Source of the DNA: Nanobdellota archaeon
GTDB lineage: Archaea; Nanobdellota; Nanobdellia; Woesearchaeales; JAHJEM01
Direction of reading: 5' to 3'
Assembly (NCBI GenBank): GCA_018825425.1
Contig: JAHJEM010000063.1
Span: 1-58,011, forward strand
DNA length: 58,011 nucleotides
Each line of letters opens with the position of its first letter. The stretch's first letter is position 1. The notes under the pieces are model-generated. The model was not told where the DNA came from. It ran no database searches and saw only the letters and a program-made list of their open reading frames with translations. Shown here one piece after another: positions 1 through 44,060 of this stretch. Made by a program: the position numbers and the translations under genes.

Positions 1-981
1 CAAAGATTTGACAGGTTAGTCGATTTTTTCGATGAACATTTCAAGGATTTTTTTGATTTTGATAGTGAGCCGTATGCAGTTTTTAGAGCAAACACAAATT
101 TAAACGAATTTGACCCGCGTACTGAAGGTCTTCCGAATGGATTAAGTCGTCAATTTGCAACAAGAACAGCTGTTCTTGACGTACCATTGGATGATATTAC
201 AAGTTCTCAGGCAGAAATTTCTATTCCAGGAATGAAGCCAAGAAAGCATATGGAAGTAAGCCGTATTGCTCAGAATGTTGCACAATATGGACATGGAATA
301 AGAATAATGTTTGAGCTAGGATGTGGAAAAGGCTTTCTGACCAATTATCTTGCGATGATGTCAGGATCTGAAGGCAATTTTATTGGCATAGATCATGACC
401 AATGTAGTCTTAAGCAAGCAAAAAAGACAGCTCAAGATCTAGGATTAGATTCAAGATTTATTCATAGCGATGCAGAGAGTATTCATTATGATGAGTTCGC
501 TGGCAGTCTAGAGCCTCGTGCTGTACTTGGTCTACACACCTGCAACTATCTGGCAGACAGAATAGTGCAATCTGGAGCAAATTTAATTGTTGTGGCACCT
601 TGTTGCTATCATGATATGGATCCGGAGCATTATTTCATTAGCAGTCATGGTAAGACTGTAGTGGAAAATAGCAATATTCCTCCTGATGATATACTTGGAG
701 AATTGGCCACAGCTCATGGTTTGTGTATAGGATTAGCCGGCGATTTTAGTACTCACGTTATGGAAACAGAAGACAGATTAGGTGATGCAGGCCCAGATTA
801 CACAAATACTATGTTACAAGCATTAACTCTTATGAAAAGGTTTTGGGGTGAACCCGCATCTGCACTCTTGGCATTAGACCGTGCAGTATATCTCCAAGAA
901 CAGGGATATACTACAGAAGTAAGCACCTTCTCTGAAGGAACTCTTACTCCAGGAAATATTTTGATTACTGCATACAGATAG
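1..981 (+). CDS. SAM-dependent methyltransferase, Methyltransf_32/METTL25-like (5' end lies outside the window)
   Basis: Frame 1 has no stop from base 1 to the TTG at 187 used by the ORF track, so the CDS is 5'-truncated. Has GMKPRKHMEV motif, glycine-rich SAM loop ELGCGKGFL and acidic strand IGIDHD. Confidence 0.6.
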   Translation, partial: QRFDRLVDFFDEHFKDFFDFDSEPYAVFRANTNLNEFDPRTEGLPNGLSRQFATRTAVLDVPLDDITSSQAEISIPGMKPRKHMEVSRIAQNVAQYGHGIRIMFELGCGKGFLTNYLAMMSGSEGNFIGIDHDQCSLKQAKKTAQDLGLDSRFIHSDAESIHYDEFAGSLEPRAVLGLHTCNYLADRIVQSGANLIVVAPCCYHDMDPEHYFISSHGKTVVENSNIPPDDILGELATAHGLCIGLAGDFSTHVMETEDRLGDAGPDYTNTMLQALTLMKRFWGEPASALLALDRAVYLQEQGYTTEVSTFSEGTLTPGNILITAYR

Positions 982-1016
982 AAAAATATTAAAGCCATGC
1001 CATTCCAAGAGATACA

Positions 1017-1361
1017 ATGGTTCAAGATTCTCTTGCAATTCATCATCTTCACAAGAGAAAGAGAATTCATCAGAAGTATGAAAAATATCCTCATCCCAAT
1101 AAATTCAAGAGGATTATGGATAAGCTAATTTTCTTTGCAGGTTTCCTTGCGATTATCATGACTATTCCGCAAGTCTTGAAAATATGGGTTGGACAAAATG
1201 CGTCAGGAGTATCTATATGGTCCTGGTCAGCATATTTGTTTACCACACTTATATGGTTGGGATATGGAATTGTCCATAAAGATAAGGCAATCATATTCGC
1301 CTATTCACCGTTCCTTATTCTACACCCGTTAATCATTATAGGAACCGTATTATATGGCTAG
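1017..1361 (+). CDS. SemiSWEET / PQ-loop small membrane transporter with a basic His-rich N-terminal extension
   Basis: Three predicted TM helices. TM1 carries the PQ motif (IMTIPQVLKIW), followed by a LIWLGYGI..D..II pattern as in bacterial SemiSWEETs. An AATATTAAA box about 27 nt upstream of ATG 1017 supports the long form over Met at 1116. Confidence 0.7.
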   Translation: MVQDSLAIHHLHKRKRIHQKYEKYPHPNKFKRIMDKLIFFAGFLAIIMTIPQVLKIWVGQNASGVSIWSWSAYLFTTLIWLGYGIVHKDKAIIFAYSPFLILHPLIIIGTVLYG

Positions 1362-1408
1362 AGTATATTGCCAAAGTGTGTAGCTTGCACAGGGTTTTCT
1401 CCATTAAC

Positions 1409-1417
1409 TTTATAAAA
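1409..1417 (+). promoter_or_regulatory. TATA box (TTTATAAAA) for leaderless thrS
   Basis: Centred ~28 nt upstream of ATG 1441. The same spacing recurs at many first-in-operon genes in this window. Confidence 0.6.
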
Positions 1418-1440
1418 TCCTTCCAACTTATCCTGCTCAT

Positions 1441-3342
1441 ATGGCAGCTATAAAAATAAAACTCGAAAAAAAGGAGCTTGAGATCAAAAAGGGCGCCAGT
1501 GGACTAGATATCCTAAAGGATAATCCACATGATGGTGCAATCGCCATGAAATTAGATGGCAAATTGGTTGATCTTACAACTACATTAGATAAATCTGCCG
1601 CAATTGAGTTTGTAACAAGCAAAGATGACGAAGGAAAAGAAGTCATCAAACATAGTGCTGCACACATCATGGCTCAAGCCATAAAAAAACTCTATCCTGA
1701 AGCAGAACCCACAATAGGCCCTGCTATAGATACTGGTTTCTACTATGATTTTGACAATCTGAAGATACAGCAGGAAGATCTTCCAAAAATTGAGAAGGAG
1801 ATGAAAAAAATCATCCATGATAAACTTCCTTTCACAAGAAAGGTTGTTCCTTTGAAAGAAGCTCTTGAAATGTTTAAGAATAAGTACAAAAAAGAGATAA
1901 TCAAGGAATTGACAGACAAAGATGTTAGTACTTACAAGCAGGGAGACTTTGTCGACTTATGCCGCGGACCTCATGTCCCACACACAGGATATGTCAAAGC
2001 AATCAAACTAACCAAACTTGCTGGAGCCTATTGGAGGGGCGACAGCAACAATGTCATGCTAACAAGAGTTTACGGAGTGGCATTTGCAAGCAAAGATGAA
2101 CTCAATGAATATGTCAAGCTATTGGAAGAAGCAGAGAAAAGAGATCACAAGAAGATTGGCAAACAGATGGACCTTTTCAGTTTCCACGAGGAAGCAGCAG
2201 GTGTTCCATTTTTCCATCCTAAAGGAAGCATTATCTACAACGAACTCCTGAATTTTATCAGGGATGAATACTTCAAGAGAGATTATGGAGAGGTCGTGAC
2301 CCCAACAATTCTCAAGAACACCATGTGGAAGCAGAGCGGTCATTGGGATCATTATAGAGAAGATATGTATTTTACTAAGATTGACAAGCAGGACTATGGT
2401 TTGAAACCCATGAACTGTCCTGCAGCAATTCTAATCTATAAGAACAGTACAAAAAGCTACAGGCAACTTCCTCTAAGGTATGCTGATTGTGGTTTTATCC
2501 ATAGAAATGAACTCAGTGGAGTACTTAATGGATTATTCAGAGTGAGAAGGTTTATCCAGGATGACTGTCATCATTTTGTCACGCCTGATCAGATGGGTGA
2601 AGAGATCAAGGAATTGATTGATTTTGTGAAATATGTCTACAAGGATGTTTTTGACTTCGAATTCCATGTAGAACTATCTACCAAACCTGATAAGGCCATG
2701 GGTGATGACAAATTATGGGAACAGGCAGAAGGTGCTTTGGGCCTTGCTATGAAGGAGGTCAAGTTGCCTTTTACAATTAATCCTGGCGATGGTGCATTCT
2801 ATGGTCCAAAATTGGACTTCCATATCAAAGACGCGCTTGGAAGGAGCTGGCAGTGCGGTACAATCCAGGTTGATTTCCAGATGCCAGAACGATTTGATCT
2901 CAATTATGAAGGACCTGATGGGACCAAGCATAGACCTGTAATCATCCACAGGACAATAATCGGCAGTGTTGAACGGTTTATGGGTGTGCTCTTGGAGCAT
3001 ACTGCTGGACGACTTCCGCTTTGGCTTTCTCCGGTTCAGGTTAGGATCATGCCTATAGCAGATCGTCATCTGGATTATGCAAAAGGAGTATTGGAGGAGT
3101 TGAAAAAACAAGGAGTCCGGGTTGACATGGATGACCGTACTGAAACCATCGGGAAAAAAGTCAGAGATGCTCAATTGCACAAGGTTCCAATCATGCTTAC
3201 ACTTGGTGACAAGGAATTGGAAGCTAAAACTCTTGCTGCAAGAACATTGGATGGAAAACTCAAGTTTGGAATAAAGACAGCTGACTTTGTAAATGCAGTA
3301 AAACAGAATATTGAGGAGAAGAAGGTTAGCGTTAGTTTTTAG
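1441..3342 (+). CDS. thrS: threonyl-tRNA synthetase, bacterial-type architecture (TGS + N2 editing + class II core + anticodon-binding)
   Basis: N2 editing-domain motifs HSAAHIMAQA and CRGPHVPHTG. Class II core FRVRRFIQDDCHHF, GAFYGPKLDF, HRTIIGSVERF. C-terminal anticodon-binding domain. Confidence 0.95.
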   Translation: MAAIKIKLEKKELEIKKGASGLDILKDNPHDGAIAMKLDGKLVDLTTTLDKSAAIEFVTSKDDEGKEVIKHSAAHIMAQAIKKLYPEAEPTIGPAIDTGFYYDFDNLKIQQEDLPKIEKEMKKIIHDKLPFTRKVVPLKEALEMFKNKYKKEIIKELTDKDVSTYKQGDFVDLCRGPHVPHTGYVKAIKLTKLAGAYWRGDSNNVMLTRVYGVAFASKDELNEYVKLLEEAEKRDHKKIGKQMDLFSFHEEAAGVPFFHPKGSIIYNELLNFIRDEYFKRDYGEVVTPTILKNTMWKQSGHWDHYREDMYFTKIDKQDYGLKPMNCPAAILIYKNSTKSYRQLPLRYADCGFIHRNELSGVLNGLFRVRRFIQDDCHHFVTPDQMGEEIKELIDFVKYVYKDVFDFEFHVELSTKPDKAMGDDKLWEQAEGALGLAMKEVKLPFTINPGDGAFYGPKLDFHIKDALGRSWQCGTIQVDFQMPERFDLNYEGPDGTKHRPVIIHRTIIGSVERFMGVLLEHTAGRLPLWLSPVQVRIMPIADRHLDYAKGVLEELKKQGVRVDMDDRTETIGKKVRDAQLHKVPIMLTLGDKELEAKTLAARTLDGKLKFGIKTADFVNAVKQNIEEKKVSVSF

Positions 3343-3357
3343 GCAATTACAAAAACA

Positions 3358-3365
3358 TTTAAAAA
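3358..3365 (+). promoter_or_regulatory. TATA box (TTTAAAAA) for leaderless serS
   Basis: Centred ~28 nt upstream of ATG 3389. Confidence 0.55.
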
Positions 3366-3388
3366 CGTGCTTGCAGTGCTTAATTCTT

Positions 3389-4663
3389 ATGATAGATATT
3401 CATCAGATAAGAGAGGATTATGAGGGCGTCAAGAAGAATCTCGAGAAACGAAAAGATCCTGAACTCATCAAACTTGTGGATCAAGCCAGACTTCTGGATG
3501 AGAACTGGCGAGAACTAAAAAAACGGACTGACGAGCTACGCCATGAGAGAAATGTTGTTAGTCAGGTCATAAATAAGCTCAAGAAAGATAATAAAGACGC
3601 TGCTTCTGCCATGGAAAAGGCTAAGAAGATTCCAAAGGAGCTCAAAGAGATTGACGAGAAGCAGAAAGCCTTGGAAGCAAAGCTCCGAATTATTATGCTG
3701 CGTATTCCAAACTTGTTGGCAGACAATGTGCCGTATGGTAAGGATTCATCTGAGAATGTTGAGATCAAGAAATATGGTGAGATCAAAAAACAAGGTTTTG
3801 AATTAAAACCACATGGTGAGCTTGCAGAAAGTCTTGGAATTGCTGATTTTGACAGGAGTACCAAGCTAAGCGGTGCTGGATTCTATTTTCTAAAAGGAGA
3901 TCTTGCTATGCTGAACATGGCACTGATCAAGTTCTCTATTGATTTCATGGTCAAGAAAGGATATACCTATGTTGAACCTCCTTTGATGTTATCCAGAAAA
4001 GCGTACGAAGGAGTGACAGATCTTGATGACTTTGAGAATGTCATGTACAAGATAGAAAGTGAAGACGCGTATATGATTGCAACATCAGAACATCCTTTAG
4101 TCAGCCAGCACATGGATGAGACTATTGATCCGAAGGGTCTACCATTAAAGTATGCAGGATACAGCATCTGTTTCCGAAGAGAGATAGGAAGCCGCGGAAT
4201 AGATACCAAAGGATTGTTTCGAACTCATCAGTTCAATAAGATTGAACAAGTAATCATATGTAAACCTGAAGATTCTACCAAATTGTTTGAAGAACTTGAT
4301 AAGAACGCTCAAGAGCTATATGAACAACTAGGTTTACCATTCAGGATTGTAAATATCTGCACAGGAGACATGGGAACTGTGGCACATTACAAACACGACC
4401 TAGAGGTGTGGTTCCCCAGGGTCAATAAGTATCAAGAGGTAGGATCATGTTCCAATTGTACTGATTACCAAGCAAGAAGATTGAATATCCGCCTGGGTGG
4501 CACTGATAAAAGATTTGTCCATACTCTTAACAATACAGCAATCGCCACAAGCAGGTGTATGGTAGCAATCCTAGAGAATTACCAGAACAAAGATGGTAGT
4601 GTTACTATTCCTGAAGTGCTTGTTCCATACATGAATGGAAAGGAAGTGATTAAGAAGAATTAA
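3389..4663 (+). CDS. serS: seryl-tRNA synthetase
   Basis: N-terminal coiled-coil arm and class II motifs (TSEHPL, FRREIGSRG, NNTAIATSR). Start moved from the track's 3311 to ATG 3389 (MIDIHQIRED), which removes the overlap with thrS and matches the TATA spacing. Confidence 0.93.
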   Translation: MIDIHQIREDYEGVKKNLEKRKDPELIKLVDQARLLDENWRELKKRTDELRHERNVVSQVINKLKKDNKDAASAMEKAKKIPKELKEIDEKQKALEAKLRIIMLRIPNLLADNVPYGKDSSENVEIKKYGEIKKQGFELKPHGELAESLGIADFDRSTKLSGAGFYFLKGDLAMLNMALIKFSIDFMVKKGYTYVEPPLMLSRKAYEGVTDLDDFENVMYKIESEDAYMIATSEHPLVSQHMDETIDPKGLPLKYAGYSICFRREIGSRGIDTKGLFRTHQFNKIEQVIICKPEDSTKLFEELDKNAQELYEQLGLPFRIVNICTGDMGTVAHYKHDLEVWFPRVNKYQEVGSCSNCTDYQARRLNIRLGGTDKRFVHTLNNTAIATSRCMVAILENYQNKDGSVTIPEVLVPYMNGKEVIKKN

Positions 4664-5022
4664 ATTTCCTTAGTATCTCCTTCTTCATTTGCAGCAATGA
4701 GTCGTACTCCCACACCAAGTTTGAGCAATGCTGAAAGGATTGCCATGTGCTCTGCTCCACTACCAGATATCATATTGAATGCAACTTCTGTCTCCCCTTC
4801 GAGCTTTCCTTTTAGTTCAGCCTGCAGTATTGCAACATTGTCAGCAATTGGCTTGGCTGCATCAATTAGAACCAAGTCTGCTTCTTTCTCATTCTGGTAG
4901 TTATCCTTAGACCACTGGTTTGTGACCAGGATCATCGTTTCAAACTGTCCAGAGTTGACGAGTGTGCCTACATGGCCCCAAGTGCCTTTTCCTGTGGACA
5001 AGCATGCTATTAGAGTTGTCAT
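4660..5022 (-). CDS. small Rossmann-like protein of unknown function (minimal CARF-like?)
   Basis: 120 aa. N-terminal strand plus glycine loop LIACLSTGKGTWG and later NMISGSGAEHMAI. A TATA-like box sits ~25 nt upstream of the ATG. The function call is speculative. Confidence 0.45.
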   Translation of the reverse strand: MTTLIACLSTGKGTWGHVGTLVNSGQFETMILVTNQWSKDNYQNEKEADLVLIDAAKPIADNVAILQAELKGKLEGETEVAFNMISGSGAEHMAILSALLKLGVGVRLIAANEEGDTKEI

Positions 5023-5061
5023 AGTATTTTCGCAAAAGAAGGATATTAATAAAGGTTTTGG

Positions 5062-5622
5062 CTATAGAAAATCAGAGTTGTTTAGCATAATCATTTCACT
5101 CTCATTCTCAGAATACTCAATTATGTTCAGACAAGCATTGCTCTGCTTGATATCAAGCATATCATTTGCAGGTATTCCATTAATAATACTAATAAGTGCT
5201 TGATTGAATCCAATGTGCGCTGCAATGAGTACACATTCATTAGAATGATTCTGATAAATCTCATCCAAGAATTGTTTAGCTCTTATTTGCATCTCTTCAT
5301 TTGTCTCAATATCATCTGGCCAGTTCTCCCAGTCACAATCATTGTCGAATTTTCCTGTGTAACTGCCCATGTCTCGCTCTCGTACCTCTTCAGTGATATG
5401 AAAATGAACATCTGGATGGTGCTTGGCAACTATTTTTGCAGTATCCAGAGCTCTTGTTAGGTCACTAGAATAAATCTGGTCAATCTGTTCATTTTTCAGC
5501 CTTAATCCTAGTTTTTCAGCTTGTTCAATTCCTTTTTTGGTGAGAGTCCCAGGTAGCTGTCCTGTAGCAATTCGCTTAATATTTTCCTCTGTCTCACCAT
5601 GTCTAGTCAATAAAATCCGCAT
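5062..5622 (-). CDS. histidine phosphatase family protein (phosphoglycerate mutase-like)
   Basis: N-terminal RILLTRHGETEEN (RHG motif), SDLTRALDT, and a later His in AAHIGF. Confidence 0.8.
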   Translation of the reverse strand: MRILLTRHGETEENIKRIATGQLPGTLTKKGIEQAEKLGLRLKNEQIDQIYSSDLTRALDTAKIVAKHHPDVHFHITEEVRERDMGSYTGKFDNDCDWENWPDDIETNEEMQIRAKQFLDEIYQNHSNECVLIAAHIGFNQALISIINGIPANDMLDIKQSNACLNIIEYSENESEMIMLNNSDFL

Positions 5623-5705
5623 ATTAGAGCTAAATACAGAGGAATTAATAAAAATACTCTTTTTTCAACAAAATTTTTAAACTAATAAACCCTCCTTCTT
5701 CCTAT

Positions 5706-6035
5706 ATGGTGGAAGAAAGCTCTGATTTGCTAGAGTTAGGGGGGAATATCAAGCTGGCCGGTTTCGGCACGCTGGAAAAATCCGAGCTCATAGTGGTGAA
5801 GAAGATAGTAGGTAGTTATGCCCGAAGATTCTCTGATAGACATAGTGATTTTGAAAGTCTACATGTAACTATGAAACTCACTCATAAGAGGGAGAAGTCA
5901 GAAAAATACGAGATAATGGGAAAGCTGCTCTTGGGAGGAAGTCCTAACAACTCCAGCGATGTAGATAGAAACCTTTTTTTCTGTCTAGATTCTGTTTTGA
6001 AGAAACTTGACACCACAGCTAGCAAGAAAATCTAA
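5706..6035 (+). CDS. possible HPF/RaiA (S30AE)-like ribosome-associated protein
   Basis: 109 aa. The pattern IKLAG...LHVTMKL...YEIMGKLLLGG...DRNLFFCLDSVLKKL parallels the beta-alpha-beta-beta-beta-alpha layout and the C-terminal d.y.aiD...dKL helix of bacterial HPF/YfiA. A TATA box sits 27 nt upstream. Confidence 0.4.
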   Translation: MVEESSDLLELGGNIKLAGFGTLEKSELIVVKKIVGSYARRFSDRHSDFESLHVTMKLTHKREKSEKYEIMGKLLLGGSPNNSSDVDRNLFFCLDSVLKKLDTTASKKI

Positions 6036-6583
6036 GAACGGGATATTTCTTGTTTCTTCACTCTACTTAGCGCTATAAAAATGACTTGCGGATCCCACTG
6101 CTGTTCTTTAAGAGTTTTTATGATCTCACCATCTGTCGATCCATTGGATCTCATCTCAGTTATATTGTTCTTCACAAGCTCTACAAATTCATACTGAAGT
6201 TCAAGAGACGGCGCTTTTTTAGTATTGAATATACCAAGCCGTTTTGGCACTTTTATCTTGTGTTCCTCTTTATTCTCCTTATGTTCTACTGTAAATTTCT
6301 TGTCCTTCTTAACTTCTAGTTTAGTTTTGGAAATCTTCCGATTTTCAATCTTCGTAAATACACTCTCTGCCTTGTCTTGATAGAAATTACGCCAATTCTC
6401 ATGAGCCTTCTGGAAGTGGTGTTCGTAAAAAAGAAACATAGTCATGGCCAATGTCAAAAACAGTAGTAGAAATGAATACACATCAGGCGTGAATAACTTT
6501 AGATTATCCTCTGCTGCAACAAACGCTTCAAGCAGAATGAAGTCCATAAGGAATACTGCAAGTAAAGTCACTATCTTCTTCAT
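6032..6583 (-). CDS. membrane protein, unknown function
   Basis: Two N-terminal hydrophobic helices followed by a Lys/Glu-rich soluble part. No recognisable domain. Confidence 0.55.
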   Translation of the reverse strand: MKKIVTLLAVFLMDFILLEAFVAAEDNLKLFTPDVYSFLLLFLTLAMTMFLFYEHHFQKAHENWRNFYQDKAESVFTKIENRKISKTKLEVKKDKKFTVEHKENKEEHKIKVPKRLGIFNTKKAPSLELQYEFVELVKNNITEMRSNGSTDGEIIKTLKEQQWDPQVIFIALSRVKKQEISRS

Positions 6584-6674: not shown

Positions 6675-6953
6675 CTATCCTATAGCTCTTCTAACATCAG
6701 TGACTTCAGCAGATTGTACACCCTCAATCTCCTTTACCTTGTCAGCAATAGGATCAGGACTGCCCTTAGCTTCGTCCATGACAAACATTAGATTAAGAGC
6801 ATTCAAACCGAATGCAATAGGTTCAATTTCAGCTTTTCTGTCCCCTTCTCCAACTTCAGAATAAAGAATCTTGTTGGCCTTCTCCTTTATTGCTTCCAAA
6901 TCAGTATCTGGAGCCTCAGGCATTATCTTTAGTGTAATTATTGCATTAGCCAC
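6675..6953 (-). CDS. ef1b: translation elongation factor aEF-1 beta
   Basis: 92 aa with a GTG start. LKIMPE...IAFGLNAL...V..VRRAIG is typical of archaeal EF-1beta. Confidence 0.9.
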   Translation of the reverse strand: MANAIITLKIMPEAPDTDLEAIKEKANKILYSEVGEGDRKAEIEPIAFGLNALNLMFVMDEAKGSPDPIADKVKEIEGVQSAEVTDVRRAIG

Positions 6954-25758: not shown

Positions 25759-25855
25759 CTTAGTAAATAAATCCATTCCACTAAATATTAAATCTACTAG
25801 TTGAAATTCCATATTTAGGGGAAAATTTATATATAAATAACTCTTTTTGCAGTGT

Positions 25856-35393: not shown

Positions 35394-37985
35394 ATGGAAG
35401 TTCAACCACACAAAAAAATCGCTCAGCTAGAGTTTGGAATAATGAGTCCTAGGTTTATCAAGGACATGGCAAGTGCCAAGATTGTCACTCCAGAACTATA
35501 TGATAAGGAAGGATATCCTGTTGATGGGGGTCTTATGGATGTCAGACTTGGAGTTATTGATCCTGGTCTGAAATGCAAGACCTGCGGACAGAAACTCAAA
35601 GAGTGTCCTGGCCATTTTGGATTCATCGAACTTGCAAGACCTGTTGTTCATATTAAGTTCATAAATGTAATCATGGATTTACTGCGATGCACTTGTCGTG
35701 ACTGCTCCAGAATCCTTATTCCTAAGAATAAGATTGACAAGTTCAGGATTCAAATTGAAGAGGTTGGTGAGATTAGTGGACTTACAGCTCGGAGAAAGAC
35801 AATTAAAGAGTTCATCTCTGCATTAAAGACTGTGAATAAATGTCCATACTGCAAAGCAAAGCAGTTCAAAATCACATTAGAAAAGCCTACAACTGTTATC
35901 GAAGATGAAAAAAGGCTTTCACCTATTGAAATCAGGACCCGACTTGAGAAAGTCACGGATTCTGATATTGAGCTTTTCGGTATCAGACCTGAAAGCGTAA
36001 GGCCTGAATGGATGATACTTACGATTCTACCAATACCTCCTGTAACAATGAGGCCAAGTATTACTTTGGAATCTGGTGAGAGAAGTGAAGATGATCTTAC
36101 TCACAAACTAGGAGATATTGTAAGGATTAACCAGAGATTGTTTGAGAATATCAATGCAGGAGCACCTGAAATCATAATTGAGGATCTTTGGGATCTTCTA
36201 CAATATCACGTGACCACGTTCATTGATAACAATGTTGCCCAACTTCCACCCGCAAGGCATAGGGGAGGACAACCACTTAAGACTCTCACTGCAAGGATCA
36301 AGTCAAAAGAAGGAAGGATCAGGCACAATCTTGTTGGAAAAAGAACTAATTTCAGTGCAAGGACAGTTATAAGTCCGGATCCAAAGCTCCAGATCAATGA
36401 AGTTGGAGTTCCATTAGTAATTGCAATGAAACTTACTGTTCCAGAAAGAACAACTGAATGGAACATGAAATACTTAAAGGAATTTATTGAAAGAGGACCA
36501 GGCAAATACCCTGGATCAAATTACATAATCAGGCCTGATGGTAAGCGAAAAAAGATAACTGATGAAACCAAAGAGCAATTACTTGAAGAGATCCAACCAG
36601 GATATATTGTTGAAAGGCATCTCATGGATGGCGATGTCACCTTGTTTAATAGACAACCGTCACTTCACAGGATGAGCATGATGTGCCATAGAGTTAGAGT
36701 TCTTCCAGGTCTTACCCTAAGATTGAATCCTGCAGTATGTGCACCATACAACGCAGACTTTGATGGAGATGAGATGAACCTTCACGTTCCTCAGACTGAA
36801 GAAGCCCGTGCAGAAGCAGAGATTCTCATGGAAGTACAGACTCAACTGATCAGTCCAAGATACGGACTGAGCATAATTGGATGTAACCAGGACGCAATCA
36901 GCGGTAACTATATTCTGACCCAACCTTGGTTCAAGGTACCACGGTCTGAAGCTATTGACATGCTGAGTGCAATCGGAATAGAGGACTTCTCAAAATTCAC
37001 AACCAAAGAGACTGTTACTGGAAAGGAGATTTTCAGTTACTTACTACCTACTGATTTTAACTTTAAGGGACTGTCAAGGTTGTATAAGGATGCTCCAGAG
37101 GACCCTGATTCTGTTGTTGAAATCAAGAATGGAAAAATATTGCATGGTATCATGGATAAGAACAATCTTGGAGAAGGAAGTGGCTTGCTGCTTAGAACTC
37201 TTCATAAAAAGTATGGAAGCACTGCTATGGTTGATATATTAGGAAAGATGTATAGACTAGGAATCGAGACCTTATTCAGGCATGGTTTTAGTGTATCATT
37301 ATCTGATCTTGATCTCCCAGCTGAATCCCATAAAGAGGTTAAGGATATCCTATTAAAAGCAGAGCAAGAAGTTGAAGATTTCATTGCAAAATACAATGAT
37401 GGTTCTCTTGAAGCAATGCCTGGAAGAAGCAGAGAAGAGACGCTTGAACTTAGAATCCTTGAAAGGCTAAATAGAGCAAGAGATGATAGTGGAAGAATTG
37501 TAACCAAGAAATCAAAACAGAACAGCCATATGATGAATATGGTAAGATCAGGTTCTAGAGGTAATGTTATCAATCTTGCTCAGATGGCAGCATGTGTAGG
37601 CCAACAAGCTCTAAGAGGAGGTAGGATCAGCATAGGTTATCGTGGTAGAACATTAAGCTGTTTCAATTCTAATGATTTAAGGGCTCCTGCAAGGGGTTTT
37701 ATCAGGAATGGATTTAAGGATGGACTGAAGCCTCATGAAGCCTTTTTTATGGCAATGACTGGACGAGACAGCCTTATGGATACGGCTCTACGAACTCCAA
37801 AATCAGGTTATCTTTATAGACGGCTTGCGAATGCGCTTCAAGATTTGAAGGTCGAGTATGATTATACTGTACGAGATGCAGGGGGGCGTATTGTCCAGTT
37901 CCAATATGGTGAAGACTCTGTAGATGTCTCAAAGAGTGAAGCAGGAAAAATTAATATCAGAAAGATTGTCAGATCGGTGGAATAA
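35394..37985 (+). CDS. rpoA1: DNA-directed RNA polymerase subunit A' (Rpo1N)
   Basis: Zn motifs CKTCGQ..CPGHFG and the catalytic [12 protein letters not shown]. Confidence 0.97.
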
Positions 37986-37986
37986 A

Positions 37987-39129
37987 ATGGATTCAGTATA
38001 CAAAGAATATGAAAGTGAACTCCCTCCTCAAATAATTGAGGAAGTCAAGAAGCATGTTGAAAAGAATGTATCAAAGCCTAGACTGAAAAAGATAATGGAA
38101 GAGGTCTATCGAGAATACAAACAGACAATTGCTGATCCTGGAGAAAGTGTTGGTTTGGTATGTGCTGAATCTATTGGAGAACCAGGTACTCAGATGACTT
38201 TGAACACATTCCACTTTGCTGGCGTTTCAGAGATGAACGTAACAACAGGTCTTCCTAGATTGATTGAAATTCTTGATGGAAGAAAGGAAATTAGCACAAA
38301 AATGACTGAGATTCATTTAAAGAAACCCTGGAGCGGGGGAAAGGATATTACAAAGATTGCCAAATCTATCAAAGAGACAACCTTTGAAGAGCATATCAAT
38401 AGCATTGACATTGATATGGTTGAGCTCACTATGGTAATAAAACTCAACGAAGACACAGATATTGCTCCTGAACAGCTTGTAAAGATTCTTAGTAAATCTG
38501 TACGAGCATTCACATTTAAGCTTGATAAAGAGAATAATATTGTGGTCAGGCCATCTTCAAAAGATGCTAGTCTGAATAGTCTTTATACCTTGAAAGAAAA
38601 GATCAAGACAGTCTGGGTATCAGGTATTAAGGGAATCACTCAAGTTCTTCCTGTTAAAAAGGGAGATAATTTCATCATCATGACTGCAGGCAGTAATCTA
38701 AAGGAAATTGCCAAGCTTGAATTTGTGGATTTGTACAATACCACAACTAATGATATTTTTGAACTTGAAAGAACTTTTGGTATTGAAGCTGCGAGACAAG
38801 GAATAATCAACGAAATTCAGAAAGTTATCAAAACCCAAGGTATTGAGATTGATATTAGGCATATCATGCTTGTGTCAGATACTATGTGTATGTCAGGATC
38901 AGTTCTAGGTATCAATAGATATGGCATTGTAAAAGAGAAGCCAAGTGTCCTTGCACGTGCATCATTTGAGACTCCAATCAAACAGATAATCGAAGCGAGC
39001 CTGATTGGCGAGTCAGATTATCTGAATAGCGTAATCGAGAATGTAATGATCAATCAGCCTGTACCTGTTGGAACAGGAATACCAACATTAATAGCAAAGA
39101 TATCAAAATCGAAAGGTGATTTAAAGTGA
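37987..39129 (+). CDS. rpoA2: DNA-directed RNA polymerase subunit A'' (Rpo1C)
   Basis: [16 protein letters not shown] trigger-loop region. Start moved to ATG 37987, 1 nt after the rpoA1 stop. Confidence 0.95.
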
Positions 39130-39380
39130 GTCTAGAAGAAATCAAGAAGAATCTTGCAAGTGTCATTATAGGAACGAATGTAGTTATGGATAATTTAAGA
39201 CAGGGAAAAATTAAGAAAATCTATCTTGCTAGTAATGCTGATGCCTCTTTGAAAAAAGAGATTGAACACTTTAAGATTATCTCTTATTTTGAAATTGAAG
39301 AACTCAATGTTTCAAATGATGACCTTGGCACTGAATGTAAAAAACCATTTTCTGTTTCAGTTGTGGGAGTGCTTAAATAA
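39126..39380 (+). CDS. rpl30e: 50S ribosomal protein eL30
   Basis: [26 protein letters not shown]...[19 protein letters not shown] start overlapping the rpoA2 stop. In the conserved operon position. Confidence 0.85.
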
Positions 39381-39799
39381 TGGCAAAAGTAACATATAAT
39401 GTTGAAATATTACAATTCATGTCCCTTTTTGAAAAGGTTACTCATTCTCATCTTAAAGATTGCTTTTTTTCTCGAGATAAAATGGTTTTTTTGGTCCAAG
39501 AAGGCCAACTGGGAAAGGCATTAGGTAAGAATAAGTCTAACGTCACCCGATTAGAGAAACTTATTAATAAGCGGTTTAAGATTGTTGAATTCAATTCTGA
39601 CATGCACCAGTTCATTGCTAACCTAATGGCACCGCTCCGAATAGCCAAGATGGATGAAGATGCAGGCGTGGTTACAATTACTGGCCCTGATTCTAAGACT
39701 AAAGGCTTGATGATCGGTGCGAGAGCTCAGAATCTTCGTGAATATGAAAGTGTAGTCAAGAAATACTTTCCTGAATTGGTTGAGATTAAGGTTGTTTAG
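39380..39799 (+). CDS. nusA: archaeal NusA-like transcription factor (two KH domains)
   Basis: ISLFEKVT...VKDC...FLVQEGQLGKALGKNKSNVTRLEKL and a second KH with GLMIGARAQNL. Confidence 0.88.
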   Translation: MAKVTYNVEILQFMSLFEKVTHSHLKDCFFSRDKMVFLVQEGQLGKALGKNKSNVTRLEKLINKRFKIVEFNSDMHQFIANLMAPLRIAKMDEDAGVVTITGPDSKTKGLMIGARAQNLREYESVVKKYFPELVEIKVV

Positions 39800-40629
39800 T
39801 CAGAAACAATTATCTTATGCAAATACTTTACTTCTAAACCAGCATTTGTTATGATCTTCTTCAATCTCAATGCATGTTGACCTACCGCAGCAAGATCAAT
39901 TATAACATCTTTGACTAGAACATCTGTCTTGCTAATGGCTTCTGCCAACGTCTCTTTTGTGAAATTATCTACTTGGTTAGATGGGCACATATGCCCTATC
40001 ACTATTTTGTCATTAATGATCTCTTGATTTCCCAATCTGTTTTGCATTAAAGGCACTATATTCCGCATATAATGATCCCCTCCTACAACTATAGACGCAT
40101 CACGTTTGTTTGGCTTGAAATTTGCCAGAATATCCTGGACCACTTTAACTATTACTTCTGCTGCTTTTTCATCTTCCCAGGCCTCTTGATTAGAACCAAT
40201 TTCAAGGTTCAGTACAGGTACTGACACGTCTGGTCCGTGGTGCGTGGCTTCGAGGCATACAGAAAAGTCAGGAAGATCATTGTTTCTTATTAATGAGTTA
40301 TAGGTGAATTTAAGAAGAGAGGGCTAAATCATGGAAAGTTTTCCTGGTTTGCCCCCAAGGTCTTTGGTATCATCTCCCTCAATATCAATAGACCATAGTC
40401 CATTCCAGTTACCGGAAGGGTGAACTGTGAAGAGTTTGAGCCGGTCACGGAGGCTATGGATAGTTATGGCTACTAGATAATCATAGTCTTTCGGTACAGT
40501 ACCATCTATAAAGTCCAAGTGTCTTCCAGGTATTTCAATCATTGGAATATTCTTATCCTTCAAAAGCTGATTGACTCTTAGGTTAAATTTCTCTTCATAC
40601 CATTTCGAACATATGATTCCAATTCTCAT
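39796..40629 (-). pseudogene. dtdA: archaeal-type D-aminoacyl-tRNA deacylase (DtdA) interrupted by one in-frame TAG at 40324-40326
   Basis: Track ORFs 40324..40629 and 39796..40227 are in the same frame. Extending the second upstream gives PSLLKFTYNSLIRNNDLPDFSVCLEATHHGPDVSVPVLNLEIGS directly after ..GGKPGKLSMI-TAG. HPSGNW, ATHHGP, EIGS and GGDHY motifs are all intact. Confidence 0.8.
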
Positions 40630-41378
40630 GCTAGTGCACCTTCTGTCACTTTCTCAAATCTTGCTACAAAGAATTCTTTTGGGGATCTCGAGACTGTAAT
40701 CCCGTATTTTTGCTCTAATAAGGGAGGTATGTTTTGCGCGGGGATGGACTGGATGTATGCAATTTCACAACCAAGGTCTCCCATTGCCATGATTAACTCT
40801 CGTGGAGAAAACAGATTTTCTGGAGGATCACTATGATTAATCAATTCATCTAGTATTTCTCTTGTTGCTCTTATAATCTCTTGATTACCCTCAATATCCA
40901 CTCGTATGTGAGGAGCATAGCAAGGATCCGCAATAATTACTTGTCCTCCAATTGCTGAGTACTGAAGAAGATTGCCTAATCCATTATAAAAGGCAGTTTT
41001 GCCCCCCATACTTTTGGCAATTTCATGAGCAGATCTTAAAAGAGTCAGTCCATGCAATGAACCTAGCGTAAGCTCAAATGCTGTTGGAGCTTGCATCATG
41101 TCTCCCTTCTTAGGAGTGTAGAGAACCTTGCCTTCCTGTTTTGCTAATTCTGCAGCATCGTCAACCAGGTTTGAAGGTTCAATGCCTAGGATATCAAGTT
41201 CCAATCCTGCTGCATTAGCGAGCTCAGCGATTGTACCAGGACCTGTACCAATATCTAGAATTGTGGATTTGACCGGATAGCATGCAAGTTGGCTGGTTAT
41301 GGCTGCATAGAACTGTTGTTCTGGCTCTTGAAACCTTTCTCTATAATCGTCTCCGCTTAACTCATTGAATACATTCAT
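40626..41378 (-). CDS. class I SAM-dependent methyltransferase
   Basis: ILDIGTGPGTIAELA motif I and ILGIEPS. 4-nt overlap with dtdA. Confidence 0.7.
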   Translation of the reverse strand: MNVFNELSGDDYRERFQEPEQQFYAAITSQLACYPVKSTILDIGTGPGTIAELANAAGLELDILGIEPSNLVDDAAELAKQEGKVLYTPKKGDMMQAPTAFELTLGSLHGLTLLRSAHEIAKSMGGKTAFYNGLGNLLQYSAIGGQVIIADPCYAPHIRVDIEGNQEIIRATREILDELINHSDPPENLFSPRELIMAMGDLGCEIAYIQSIPAQNIPPLLEQKYGITVSRSPKEFFVARFEKVTEGALA

Positions 41379-41438
41379 AAATGAGAGAATTGGAACATGC
41401 TTTTTAAATATTAAGGCAAAAATGAATGAAAAATAGGA

Positions 41439-44060
41439 TTATTCCTCTTTCAACACAGCATGCGCAGCCGCTAATCTCGCCACTGGAACTCTATATGGAC
41501 TGCAGCTAACATAGTTCAAACCAAGTTTGTGGCAGAATGCAATGCTTGCAGGGTTTCCACCATGTTCTCCACAGATTCCTAGCTTCAGGTCTTTCTTGAC
41601 TTCTCGCCCTTTTTTGCAGGCCAACTCCATCAGTTGTCCTACCCCGCATTCGTCTATCCTTTGGAATGGATCCCATGCAAGAACTTTCTTGTCATAATAC
41701 TCATTTAAGAATTTACCTGCATCATCCCTGCTGAATCCAAAGGTCATCTGGGTAAGATCATTTGTTCCAAAGCTAAAGAAGTCTGCTTCTGCTGCGATTT
41801 TTTCTGCAGTGAGACATGCTCTTGGTATCTCAATCATAGTTCCGACCTGATAATCGAGTTTAACACCAAAATTCTTAATGGTTTCATCAGCTATCTTGAT
41901 GATAAGTTCTCTTAAGAGTTTTAATTCATTGACATGACCTACTAGAGGCACCATGATTTCTGGCTTGACTTCTTTACCTTCCTTTTTTAACTCACATGCG
42001 GCCTCTATTATTGCCCTTGTCTGCATCTCTGCAATCTCAGGATACGTTATACACAACCGGCATCCTCTGTGACCAAGCATAGGATTGAATTCATGGAGTG
42101 CTTCAAGTCGTTCCTTGATCTTTTCTTCAGGAATACCCAAATCCTTGCTTACCTCTTTGATTGCTTCCTCAGTCTGAGGAAGGAATTCATGAAGTGGAGG
42201 ATCAATCAATCTGATATTTGCAGGTTTTCCTTCCAAAACCTCAAAGATGGCTTTGAAATCTCCTTTCTGTATTGGCATAAGTTTGTCCAAAGCTTTTTTT
42301 CTTCCTTCGACATCTGTTGCAAGGATCATTTCTCGCACATGGAGTATCCTTTCTCCTTCAAAGAACATGTGTTCTGTCCTGCAAAGACCTATTCCTTCTG
42401 CGCCAAAGTCAATTGCTACTTTTGTGTCCTTAGGAGTATCTGAGTTGGTTCTTATCTTTAGGGTTCTATGATTATCTGCCCAGCCCATTAACTTTTGGAA
42501 TTCACCACTCATCTCGGGCTCTACCATATTTACTTGTCCTAAAAAGACTTCTCCTGTGCTACCGTCAATACTAATCCAACTATCTTCATTCAGTTGCTGG
42601 TCCTTGATTTTGACCGTTTTTGCGCTTTCATCAATGATTACCTCTTCGCAACCTGCAACACAGCATTTACCCATGCCTCTTGCAACGACTGCGGCGTGAC
42701 TGGTCATTCCTCCTCTGCTTGTGAGTATTCCTTGAGCAGAATGCATACCTTCAATGTCTTCAGGACTGGTCTCAGTTCTAACTAGAAGGACTTTCTTACC
42801 AGCTGAATTCTTGTCATGGGCTTCTTCTGCTGTAAATGCAATCTGGCCAACTGCAGCACCAGGGCTTGCTGGAAGACCTTTTGCAATTAATTGAGCTTTC
42901 TTCTTACCCTCAGGATCAAGTTGCTTATGCATTACTTGTTCTATCTGGTCAGGATTGACTCTAAGAATTGCTTCTTTCTGGTTGATCAGACCTTCAGATT
43001 CCATGTCAACTGCAATCTTGATTGCAGCTTGAGCAGTCCTCTTACCATTACGTGTCTGGAGTATGAATAATACATTGTTCTCGATTGTAAATTCGAAATC
43101 TTGAACATCTTTATAATGTAGTTCCAGTTTCTCATAGACCTTGATCAGTTCAGCATATGGTCCGGGAAGATCTTGTTTCATGTCGTCAATCTTTTTTGGT
43201 GTTCGTATTCCTGCTACAACATCTTCTCCCTGAGCATTGATCAAATATTCTCCATAATGCTCTTTATCACCTGTACTTGGATTTCTTGTGAATGAAACTC
43301 CGGTTCCAGAATCATTTCCCATGTTTCCAAAGACCATCTCTTGGATACTGACTGCAGTACCTGCATCATCAGGAATATTATTTAGTCTTCTATATGTGAC
43401 TGCTCGTTTGCCATTCCATGATCCAAACACAGCTGTTACAGATAGTTTCAATTGTTCCAAGGGATCCGTAGGAATCTCTTTTCCTGATTCTTTCTTAATA
43501 ATATCCTTAAAATTTTTGACCAACTCTTTCAAGTCTTCTACTTTGAGTTCTGTGTCAAGTTTGACGCCTTTTTTATTCTTTAACTCATGGATAGCAGCCT
43601 CAAAACTAGAGTGTTTTACTCCCATGACCACATCTCCAAACATCTGGACAAATCGCCTATAAGAATCATATGAACCACGTTCATTATTTGTTTTGACTAC
43701 AAGACCTTGAATAACTTCGTCATTAAGACCAAGGTTAAGGACTGTGTCCATCATTCCAGGCATTGATACATATGAACCTGACCGTACAGACAATAATAGA
43801 GGATTGGATTTATTTCCAAAACCTTTCTTGGTCTTGTCTTCCATTGCTTTAACACTTGCCTTAAGTTCATCCTCCAAGCCATCAGGCCAAGAATTATTTT
43901 TTATGTATTCACGGCAAGCGTCCGTGGTTATTGTAAATGCTTTTGGAACAGGAAGACCAATCTTCATCATTTCAGACAACTGAGCCCCCTTGTTTCCTAA
44001 TAGCTTGTAGATCTCTAACGGATTATCAACCTCATCCAGTTGATAGACATATTTTCCCAT
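41439..44060 (-). CDS. ppdK: pyruvate, phosphate dikinase
   Basis: 873 aa. ATP-grasp N-terminus, phosphohistidine motif GGMTSHAAVVARGMGK, and PEP/pyruvate-binding TIM barrel (GICGEHGG). GGTGA SD upstream. Confidence 0.95.
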   Translation of the reverse strand: MGKYVYQLDEVDNPLEIYKLLGNKGAQLSEMMKIGLPVPKAFTITTDACREYIKNNSWPDGLEDELKASVKAMEDKTKKGFGNKSNPLLLSVRSGSYVSMPGMMDTVLNLGLNDEVIQGLVVKTNNERGSYDSYRRFVQMFGDVVMGVKHSSFEAAIHELKNKKGVKLDTELKVEDLKELVKNFKDIIKKESGKEIPTDPLEQLKLSVTAVFGSWNGKRAVTYRRLNNIPDDAGTAVSIQEMVFGNMGNDSGTGVSFTRNPSTGDKEHYGEYLINAQGEDVVAGIRTPKKIDDMKQDLPGPYAELIKVYEKLELHYKDVQDFEFTIENNVLFILQTRNGKRTAQAAIKIAVDMESEGLINQKEAILRVNPDQIEQVMHKQLDPEGKKKAQLIAKGLPASPGAAVGQIAFTAEEAHDKNSAGKKVLLVRTETSPEDIEGMHSAQGILTSRGGMTSHAAVVARGMGKCCVAGCEEVIIDESAKTVKIKDQQLNEDSWISIDGSTGEVFLGQVNMVEPEMSGEFQKLMGWADNHRTLKIRTNSDTPKDTKVAIDFGAEGIGLCRTEHMFFEGERILHVREMILATDVEGRKKALDKLMPIQKGDFKAIFEVLEGKPANIRLIDPPLHEFLPQTEEAIKEVSKDLGIPEEKIKERLEALHEFNPMLGHRGCRLCITYPEIAEMQTRAIIEAACELKKEGKEVKPEIMVPLVGHVNELKLLRELIIKIADETIKNFGVKLDYQVGTMIEIPRACLTAEKIAAEADFFSFGTNDLTQMTFGFSRDDAGKFLNEYYDKKVLAWDPFQRIDECGVGQLMELACKKGREVKKDLKLGICGEHGGNPASIAFCHKLGLNYVSCSPYRVPVARLAAAHAVLKEE

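What the first reader, a model, noticed from the sequence alone, without database searches (positions are those of the whole stretch)
39796..40629. Otherwise intact archaeal D-aminoacyl-tRNA deacylase (dtdA) with a single in-frame TAG
The 101-aa and 143-aa track ORFs are the two parts of one DtdA-family gene in the same frame. The only interruption is TAG at 40324-40326, between ..GGKPGKLSMI and PSLLKFTY..ATHHGPDVSVP..EIGS. About 277 codons show no other stop or frameshift, and all family motifs I can recall (H.SGNW, ATHHGP, EIGS, GGDHY) are preserved. The lesion is therefore very recent, or an assembly or population variant, or the codon is read through. TAG is a genuine stop elsewhere in the window (thrS, rps19e, rpl31e, nusA, the SemiSWEET gene and the Zn-ribbon gene), so genome-wide reassignment is unlikely. 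Archaeal-type ThrRS editing domains are DtdA homologues, and this genome instead carries a bacterial-type ThrRS with the N2 editing domain at 1441-3342.
Basis: partly seen in the sequence, partly recalled or inferred. Interest (0 to 1): 0.6.

Follow-up and report, generated by a model that had tools for sequence, protein, structure and literature searches.

The report
One-base stop codon private to assembly
The stop codon that splits this archaeal D-aminoacyl-tRNA deacylase gene is a single-base difference found only in this deposited genome bin; two independent public read-set assemblies of the same DNA carry a serine codon there, so the gene is intact and ordinary and the anomaly is most likely an assembly error or rare variant.

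Summary
Window 39796-40629 (- strand) is one 277-codon DtdA/DTD2 gene (Pfam PF04414, E 4.6e-39) with a single in-frame TAG at 40324-40326.

The TAG is not a feature of the organism's gene. Logan assemblies of two public runs, SRR2544004 (6,245 bp) and SRR27458548 (1,516 bp), carry the same locus. Each differs from the window at one base only, 40325, which gives TCG (Ser) in place of TAG. About 29.5 kb of this genome bin (MAG) was compared with SRR2544004 contigs, and that base is the only difference. Serine is also the usual residue at this position in the closest intact relatives (40-47% identical).

Recoding is very unlikely. No PylS or PylD gene was found. None of the 19 detected tRNAs has a CUA anticodon. 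TAG ends about 26% of long ORFs.

The same MAG has other such stops. Its only HisRS gene contains an in-frame TAA where a Logan contig has GAA. A conserved protease-like gene contains an in-frame TAG.

Verdict: a consensus error or rare variant in the MAG, in an otherwise ordinary, well-preserved DTD2.

Side note: this divergent DTD2 subfamily is always directly preceded, usually with an overlap, by a gene for a methyltransferase-like protein.

The parts
39796..40629 (-). dtdA (DTD2-type D-aminoacyl-tRNA deacylase), 277 codons plus stop. It is intact with Ser102 in two other public assemblies.
   Evidence: Translation. PF04414 E 4.6e-39. NCBIfam NF003072 E 2.5e-38, below its equivalog cut-off. 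AlphaFold pLDDT 93, pTM 0.92. Foldseek matches 1yqe and 2gfq at TM 0.76-0.79. Every one of the 17 columns invariant in a 46-sequence family alignment that includes this protein carries the shared residue here.
40324..40326 (-). In-frame TAG (codon 102). It is TCG (Ser) in Logan contigs SRR2544004_312654 and SRR27458548_124600.
   Evidence: The single differing base is window position 40325: T here and G in both run assemblies on the + strand, which is A versus C on the coding strand.
40626..41378 (-). Upstream 250-aa class-I-SAM-methyltransferase-like gene. Its TGA stop overlaps the dtdA ATG (ATGA), which indicates one operon.
   Evidence: overlap. Weak Methyltransf_23/25 matches below Pfam cut-offs. 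A homologous gene sits directly upstream of dtdA, usually overlapping it, in 6 of 7 subfamily loci, and a same-sized ORF sits there in the seventh. No such gene was found in 182 other DtdA-family loci.
39380..39799 (+). Convergent KH/NusA-like gene. Its TAG stop overlaps the dtdA stop by 4 nt.
   Evidence: The same gene order is seen in Logan contig L210.

Best explanation
The organism's gene is an intact, single-domain DTD2/DtdA deacylase with serine at residue 102. The TAG in this record is a one-base discrepancy: TCG to TAG on the coding strand, G to T at window position 40325 on the + strand. It is private to the deposited MAG contig, so it is either a consensus or assembly error or a low-frequency nonsense variant that the assembler picked up. 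It is not a fixed pseudogene and not a recoding signal. Shown here: the intact allele exists in two independent run assemblies that are otherwise base-for-base identical to the window. Inferred: the TAG is an artefact or a minority allele rather than the majority state in the sample the MAG came from.
For: (1) The 90% cluster that holds the window's two fragments also holds a 277-aa Logan protein identical to the read-through translation with Ser102. (2) Logan contigs from SRR2544004 (6,245 bp) and SRR27458548 (1,516 bp) match window 36139-42383 and 39545-41060 with a single mismatch, at gene position 305: C in Logan, A in the window. (3) Across 29,466 bp of the MAG compared with SRR2544004 contigs and 4,313 bp compared with SRR27458548 contigs, that is the only difference. 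(4) The N-terminal 101-aa fragment that the TAG allele would produce is on record only from the 58,011-bp NCBI contig. (5) In the closest intact relatives (40-47% identity) the aligned residue is Ser in 8 of 10 distinct sequences, with Leu and Asp once each. TCG is one step from TAG. (6) The same MAG has an in-frame TAA in its only HisRS gene, an essential gene, where a Logan contig encodes Glu (GAA). It also has an in-frame TAG in a protease-like gene that is intact in 11 relatives. Stops of two kinds in conserved genes point to scattered base errors or variants that selection has not filtered. (7) The gene shows no other decay: all family-invariant residues are kept and the fold is predicted with high confidence.
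Against: The allele frequency in the MAG's own source data is therefore unknown, and I could not establish which run(s) the MAG was built from. Logan contigs drop rare variants, so they show that TCG exists but not that TAG is absent. dtdA was not found in the three same-genus genomes or in four of five same-family genomes, so a real loss-of-function allele would be tolerable in this clade.
Confidence: 0.88

Rival explanations
1. A real, very young pseudogene. In the population sampled for the MAG, a TCG-to-TAG nonsense mutation has become the majority allele, and the gene is starting to be lost, as it has been in congeners.
For: No DTD2 or DTD1 gene was found in the three same-genus genomes (71-94% complete), nor in the one same-family genome also searched with both family models. 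The gene therefore looks dispensable in this clade. A truncation at residue 101 removes all catalytic motifs.
Against: Two independent runs carry the intact allele on a background that is otherwise 100% identical. The same MAG has a nonsense codon in its single essential HisRS gene that a Logan contig lacks, and that one cannot be a viable fixed mutation. There is no second lesion in the 277 codons.
Confidence: 0.08
2. Programmed decoding of the TAG by pyrrolysine, a suppressor tRNA or context-dependent readthrough, giving a full-length protein.
For: The frame is perfectly open on both sides. The next base after the TAG is C. The tRNA census is incomplete: 19 hits, and this genome has multi-intron tRNAs that finders miss. 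A second conserved gene in the genome also has an in-frame TAG.
Against: There is no PylS match and only a sub-threshold PylD match (18 bits against a 150-bit cut-off). No detected tRNA has a CUA anticodon. TAG terminates 26% of long frames, and same-frame ORF pairs separated by TAG are not enriched. The other confirmed in-frame stop is TAA, not TAG. Above all, the same DNA in two other assemblies simply has TCG.
Confidence: 0.02
3. A functional split gene: the 101-aa and the roughly 143-175-aa products are made separately and assemble into an active enzyme.
For: DPANN archaea are known for split genes (general knowledge). Start codons exist after the stop: the TTG used for the 164-aa database call and the GTG of the 143-aa ORF.
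Against: The break falls inside one compact domain, at the N-cap of helix 103-116 (pLDDT 98). The database's 164-aa start would delete 11 conserved residues. All 10 subfamily relatives are single ORFs. The intact allele exists on an identical background.
Confidence: 0.01

Closest known systems
DTD2 / DtdA, archaeal and plant D-aminoacyl-tRNA deacylase (Pfam PF04414; structures 1yqe AF0625 and 2gfq PH0006; Arabidopsis GEK1, PMC1807948; PMC7857688; PMC10942605)
   Same: A PF04414 domain across the whole protein. The same fold (TM 0.76-0.79). All family-invariant residues are kept (H58, H70, G73, N74, G92, G93, E127, T129-P133, E143, G145, W151, G184, H186). It is the only deacylase of this kind found in the genome.
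   Different: It belongs to a divergent subfamily, at most 35% identical to DtdA of other members of its order and 40-47% identical to about 10 subfamily members. It carries extra residues after the GNW motif and a low-confidence loop at about residues 197-207. It is always directly preceded, usually with an overlap, by a methyltransferase-like gene. It scores far below the NCBIfam equivalog cut-offs (132 against 272 bits). Activity was not tested.
Pyrrolysine (TAG) decoding in methanogens and some other archaea
   Same: A single in-frame TAG in an otherwise intact gene.
   Different: No pylS, pylB, pylC or pylD genes and no tRNA(CUA) were found. TAG is a frequent stop (26%). The codon is TCG in other assemblies of the same DNA.
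Consensus errors or minority variants in metagenome-assembled genomes (general knowledge)
   Same: An isolated single-base difference from other assemblies of the same population. Nonsense codons of more than one type occur in conserved and even essential single-copy genes. The genes show no accompanying decay.
   Different: The cause could not be established without reads. Both resolved cases are G:C-to-T:A changes, which is the pattern of oxidative damage, but two cases prove nothing.

Membership tests
DTD2 / DtdA (PF04414) | Pfam tRNA_deacylase domain above the gathering score | tested here: met
   134.5 bits against a cut-off of 33.6, residues 47-267, model positions 3-204 of 205
DTD2 / DtdA (PF04414) | DTD2 fold as in the solved archaeal structures | tested here: met
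   AlphaFold pLDDT 93, pTM 0.92. Foldseek 1yqe E 5e-20 at TM 0.79, and 2gfq at TM 0.76. Sequence matches to both structures.
DTD2 / DtdA (PF04414) | Conserved motif residues (GNW, E-THHGP, E-x-G-S, GG-H-Y) | tested here: met
   The window protein carries the shared residue at all 17 columns that are invariant in a 46-sequence alignment of which it is the first row.
DTD2 / DtdA (PF04414) | Deacylation of D-aminoacyl-tRNA or N-ethyl-D-aminoacyl-tRNA | not testable with these tools
   A biochemical assay is needed. NCBIfam equivalog cut-offs are not reached (132 against 272 bits), so functional equivalence is inferred and not shown.
Pyrrolysine decoding system | pylS (PylRS) and pylBCD genes in the genome | tested here: not met
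   TIGR02367 gave no match. TIGR03911 gave one 18-bit match against a 150-bit cut-off. PylB and PylC models were not searched. The genome is 82% complete.
Pyrrolysine decoding system | tRNA with a CUA anticodon | tested here: inconclusive
   None among the 14 ARAGORN and 19 Rfam tRNA hits. The tRNA set is less than half complete, and multi-intron tRNAs escape the finders.
Pyrrolysine decoding system | TAG rare as a terminator | tested here: not met
   TAG ends 248 of 955 long frames in the genome and 8 of 35 larger ORFs tallied in the window.
Pseudogene (fixed loss of function) | The lesion is present in independent samples of the same lineage, or further decay is visible | tested here: not met
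   Two independent run assemblies have TCG. There is no second stop or frameshift, and all invariant residues are kept.

The most novel reading that the evidence does not exclude
The nonsense codons in this MAG are real in the cells it was assembled from and are tolerated because this DPANN archaeon reads through stop codons at an appreciable rate. The codons are TAG in dtdA, TAA in the only HisRS gene, and TAG in a conserved membrane protease-like gene. The lineage would then carry viable 'interrupted' essential genes.
Probability: 0.02. Interest if true: 0.7.

Novelty: not a real feature. Interest (0 to 1): 0.1.

Why it matters
The main value is as a caution. An 'otherwise intact gene with one in-frame TAG' in a MAG looks like recoding or a newborn pseudogene. 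Here, an exact-protein look-up in run-level assemblies resolved it to a single base private to the deposited contig. The same MAG has at least two more such stops, one of them in its only HisRS gene, so in-frame stops in this assembly should not be read as biology until reads are checked. In the positive sense, the organism has a well-preserved but divergent DTD2, while its sequenced congeners appear to lack any D-aminoacyl-tRNA deacylase. This DTD2 subfamily is also strictly coupled to an uncharacterised methyltransferase-like gene, a small lead for anyone studying DTD2 function.

Tried and rejected
I did not use read laying because it takes run ids from that tool.
2. Close relatives in JGI metagenome contigs: a search with the C-terminal 175 aa found none. 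An alignment-based scan found only relatives at 42% identity or less.
3. The search for homologous proteins found only the window's own 164-aa fragment and distant hits. The full HMMER scan was needed to reveal the 40-46% subfamily.
4. Synteny in congeners: in G001, the only congener whose flank was read, the gene order breaks directly after nusA, so there was no orthologous site to compare.
5. A genome-wide scan for same-frame ORF pairs separated by one stop: the raw lists were mostly non-coding frames. A codon-usage filter followed by Pfam and relative searches gave two further genuine interruptions, HisRS and the gene on contig 99 (C99). It also gave two unresolved candidates: contig 48 (C48), a TGA before a C-terminal membrane anchor; and contig 121 (C121), a TAA whose downstream 171-aa product is called identically in a Logan assembly, so it is probably a true gene start.
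6. P0010, a 167-aa subfamily protein that begins right at the position of the stop, looked like a second split gene. It starts at the conserved Met of the KLSM motif and has Ser at the TAG column, so it is a fragment or a start-site call and not a shared stop.
7. Four further exact look-ups of window proteins failed: the 101-aa TAG-allele fragment, which bears on point 4 of the evidence, and three intact proteins, probably because of start-site calls or fragmented contigs.

Full report
**Observation.** The minus strand of window 39796-40629 reads as one 277-codon frame with a single internal stop. That stop is TAG at 40324-40326, between ..GKPGKLSMI and PSLLKFTY... The ORF listing shows the two pieces as a 101-aa and a 143-aa ORF in the same frame. 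Pfam PF04414 (D-aminoacyl-tRNA deacylase, the DtdA/DTD2 family) matches residues 47-267 across the stop at E 4.6e-39. NCBIfam DtdA models match too, but below their equivalog cut-offs. The gene's ATG overlaps the TGA of the upstream 250-aa gene (ATGA). Its stop overlaps the stop of the convergent nusA-like gene.

**Genome context.** The window is contig 80 of a 1.51-Mb, 143-contig, 38.9% G+C metagenome-assembled genome (MAG), estimated 82% complete. Record titles of related loci place the gene family's relatives in Woesearchaeota/Nanoarchaeota (DPANN).

**Test of recoding.**
- No PylS match was found. The only PylD match scores 18 bits against a cut-off of 150.
- ARAGORN finds 14 tRNAs and Rfam RF00005 finds 19. 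None has a CUA anticodon.
- This census is incomplete.
- TAG ends 248 of 955 long open frames. Same-frame neighbouring frames separated by a TAG are no commoner than TAG usage predicts: 34 of 126, or 27%. In the window, TAG ends 8 of the 35 larger ORFs tallied, including thrS and nusA.
- Genome-wide reassignment is therefore excluded, and a dedicated TAG decoder has no support.

**Relatives.**
- Within the same order, 28 of 40 genomes have a DtdA homologue, but at no more than 35% identity. None of the three same-genus genomes has one, and only one of five same-family genomes does.
- Searches with the Pfam models for DTD2 and for bacterial DTD1 were also empty in the three congeners and in the one same-family genome searched.
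- In the one congener whose flank was read (G001), the gene order breaks right after nusA.
- A full HMMER scan of 1.84 billion representative proteins found a small divergent subfamily at 38-46% identity. Back-translated scans recovered seven of its loci with DNA, and all are uninterrupted.
- At the column of the TAG, 8 of 10 distinct subfamily sequences have Ser; one has Leu and one Asp. Ser (TCG) and Leu (TTG) are each one step from TAG.

**The decisive result.** The 90%-identity cluster that contains the window's two fragments also contains a 277-aa protein from Logan assemblies. It is identical to the window's read-through translation with Ser at residue 102. That protein is encoded on contig SRR2544004_312654 (6,245 bp) and on SRR27458548_124600 (1,516 bp), with the same neighbouring genes.
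- Both contigs align to the window without gaps and with one mismatch each, at the same place. Gene position 305 is C in both contigs and A in the window, giving TCG against TAG. On the + strand this is window position 40325, G against T.
- Further look-ups brought in four more Logan contigs. In all, 29,466 bp of the MAG were compared with SRR2544004 contigs and 4,313 bp with SRR27458548 contigs. Position 40325 is the only difference anywhere.
- The 101-aa product that a TAG allele would give is on record only from the 58,011-bp NCBI contig.
- The TAG is therefore private to the deposited contig, while the same DNA in two independent read sets has a serine codon.
This is the nearest available equivalent.

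**Other in-frame stops in the same MAG.** A scan for stops with coding signal on both sides, followed by Pfam and relative searches, found two more.
- *HisRS.* The genome's only HisRS gene lies on contig 59 (C59), minus strand, with a TAA at 25786-25788. The tRNA-synt_His domain runs straight across the stop. The two congeners with a HisRS match have it intact, with Gln or Arg at that position. A Logan contig encodes the intact 433-aa protein with Glu, GAA.
- *Protease-like gene.* A conserved secreted, membrane-anchored protease-like gene lies on contig 99 (C99), with a TAG at 6841-6843. Its homologues in 11 relatives are open across that point, and both flanks are strongly conserved. No full-length version is on record elsewhere.
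- *What this implies.* Stops of two kinds in conserved genes, one of them essential and single-copy, are what scattered base errors or unfiltered minority variants would produce. They are not what a TAG-specific mechanism would produce. Both resolved cases are G:C-to-T:A changes, the class produced by oxidative DNA damage, but two cases do not establish a cause.

**What the gene is.** With Ser102 the protein folds with high confidence (pLDDT 93, pTM 0.92). Its fold matches the two solved archaeal DTD2 structures, 1yqe and 2gfq, at TM 0.76-0.79 (sequence matches). It carries the shared residue at every column that is invariant in a 46-sequence family alignment that includes it. Residue 102 sits at the N-cap of helix 103-116 inside the single domain. 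Truncation there would remove the E-THHGP, EIGS and GGDHY motifs, so the TAG allele would be null. By homology the protein is expected to hydrolyse D-aminoacyl-tRNAs and their aldehyde adducts, as shown for DTD2 (PMC1807948, PMC7857688, PMC10942605). That function is inferred and was not tested.

**Correction of an aside.** From my own knowledge, that domain resembles DTD1, not DTD2. PMC7857688 calls the two deacylases evolutionarily distinct and relates DTD2 to peptidyl-tRNA hydrolase. The ThrRS in the window does have the bacterial-type tRNA_SAD domain.

**Side finding.** In six of seven subfamily loci, a homologue of the window's upstream 250-aa gene directly precedes the dtdA-like gene, overlapping it in most. 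The seventh locus has a same-sized ORF there. None of 182 other DtdA-family loci has that gene within the flanks fetched. The protein has only a class-I SAM-binding motif, with Pfam scores below cut-off, and matches no curated family or solved relative. In three of four subfamily genomes the subfamily member is the only DTD2.

**Verdict.** The anomaly is most likely a consensus error or rare variant of the MAG (confidence 0.88). Alternatives are a real young pseudogene (0.08), recoding (0.02) and a functional split gene (0.01).

Noticed in passing
G000 contig 59 (C59), 25786-25788 (- strand); outside the window: The genome's only HisRS gene has an in-frame TAA inside the tRNA-synt_His domain. 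The two congeners with a HisRS match have Gln or Arg there, and a Logan contig encodes the same protein intact with Glu (GAA). This is a second nonsense codon private to the MAG, in an essential gene.
   Followed up: yes
G000 contig 99 (C99), 6841-6843 (+ strand); outside the window: An in-frame TAG in a 597-codon gene for a secreted, membrane-anchored protease-like protein. The gene is uninterrupted in 11 related genomes, with S, E or G at that column, and is strongly conserved on both sides. No other assembly of this exact gene is on record, so whether the TAG is private to the MAG is unknown.
   Followed up: partly
window 40626-41378 (-) together with 39796-40629 (-); also L046-L049 and L126-L128: The divergent DtdA subfamily is always directly preceded, usually with an overlap, by a gene of about 250 aa for a class-I-methyltransferase-like protein with no curated family. 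This holds by homology in 6 of 7 loci, and a same-sized ORF is present in the seventh. A divergently oriented gene whose N-terminus looks like a TrmB-type regulator (judged by eye, not scanned) is often next to the pair. None of 182 loci with other DtdA-family genes has the methyltransferase-like gene. This is a possible two-gene functional unit.
   Followed up: partly
G001-G004 (three same-genus genomes and one same-family genome): Neither DTD2 (PF04414) nor DTD1 (PF02580) was found in the three same-genus genomes (71-94% complete) or in one same-family genome. This clade may largely do without a stand-alone D-aminoacyl-tRNA deacylase.
   Followed up: partly
window 1 onward and G000 contig 71 (C71), 1669-5124: Logan contig SRR2544004_281720 (9,819 bp) matches C71 1669-5124 and window 1-6323 at 100% identity, with 40 nt between them. 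Contigs 71 and 80 of the MAG are therefore adjacent in the genome.
   Followed up: yes
window 40366-40398 and about 40009-40041 (-), residues 78-88 and 197-207: This DtdA has lineage-specific insertions. The subfamily has extra residues after the GNW motif, with five more here (..IDIEG..). There is also a loop of about 9 residues (NRLGNQEII) that is predicted with low confidence.
   Followed up: no
G000 contig 48 (C48), about 11330 (+ strand): A 1,267-codon surface-protein frame ends in TGA and is followed in the same frame by a transmembrane helix plus a basic tail. This looks like its own C-terminal anchor, so it may be another interrupted gene.
   Followed up: no
whole genome G000: Only 19 tRNA genes are detectable with Rfam RF00005 and 14 with ARAGORN. 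Many carry introns, so the tRNA set is far from complete and anticodon censuses here are unreliable.
   Followed up: partly
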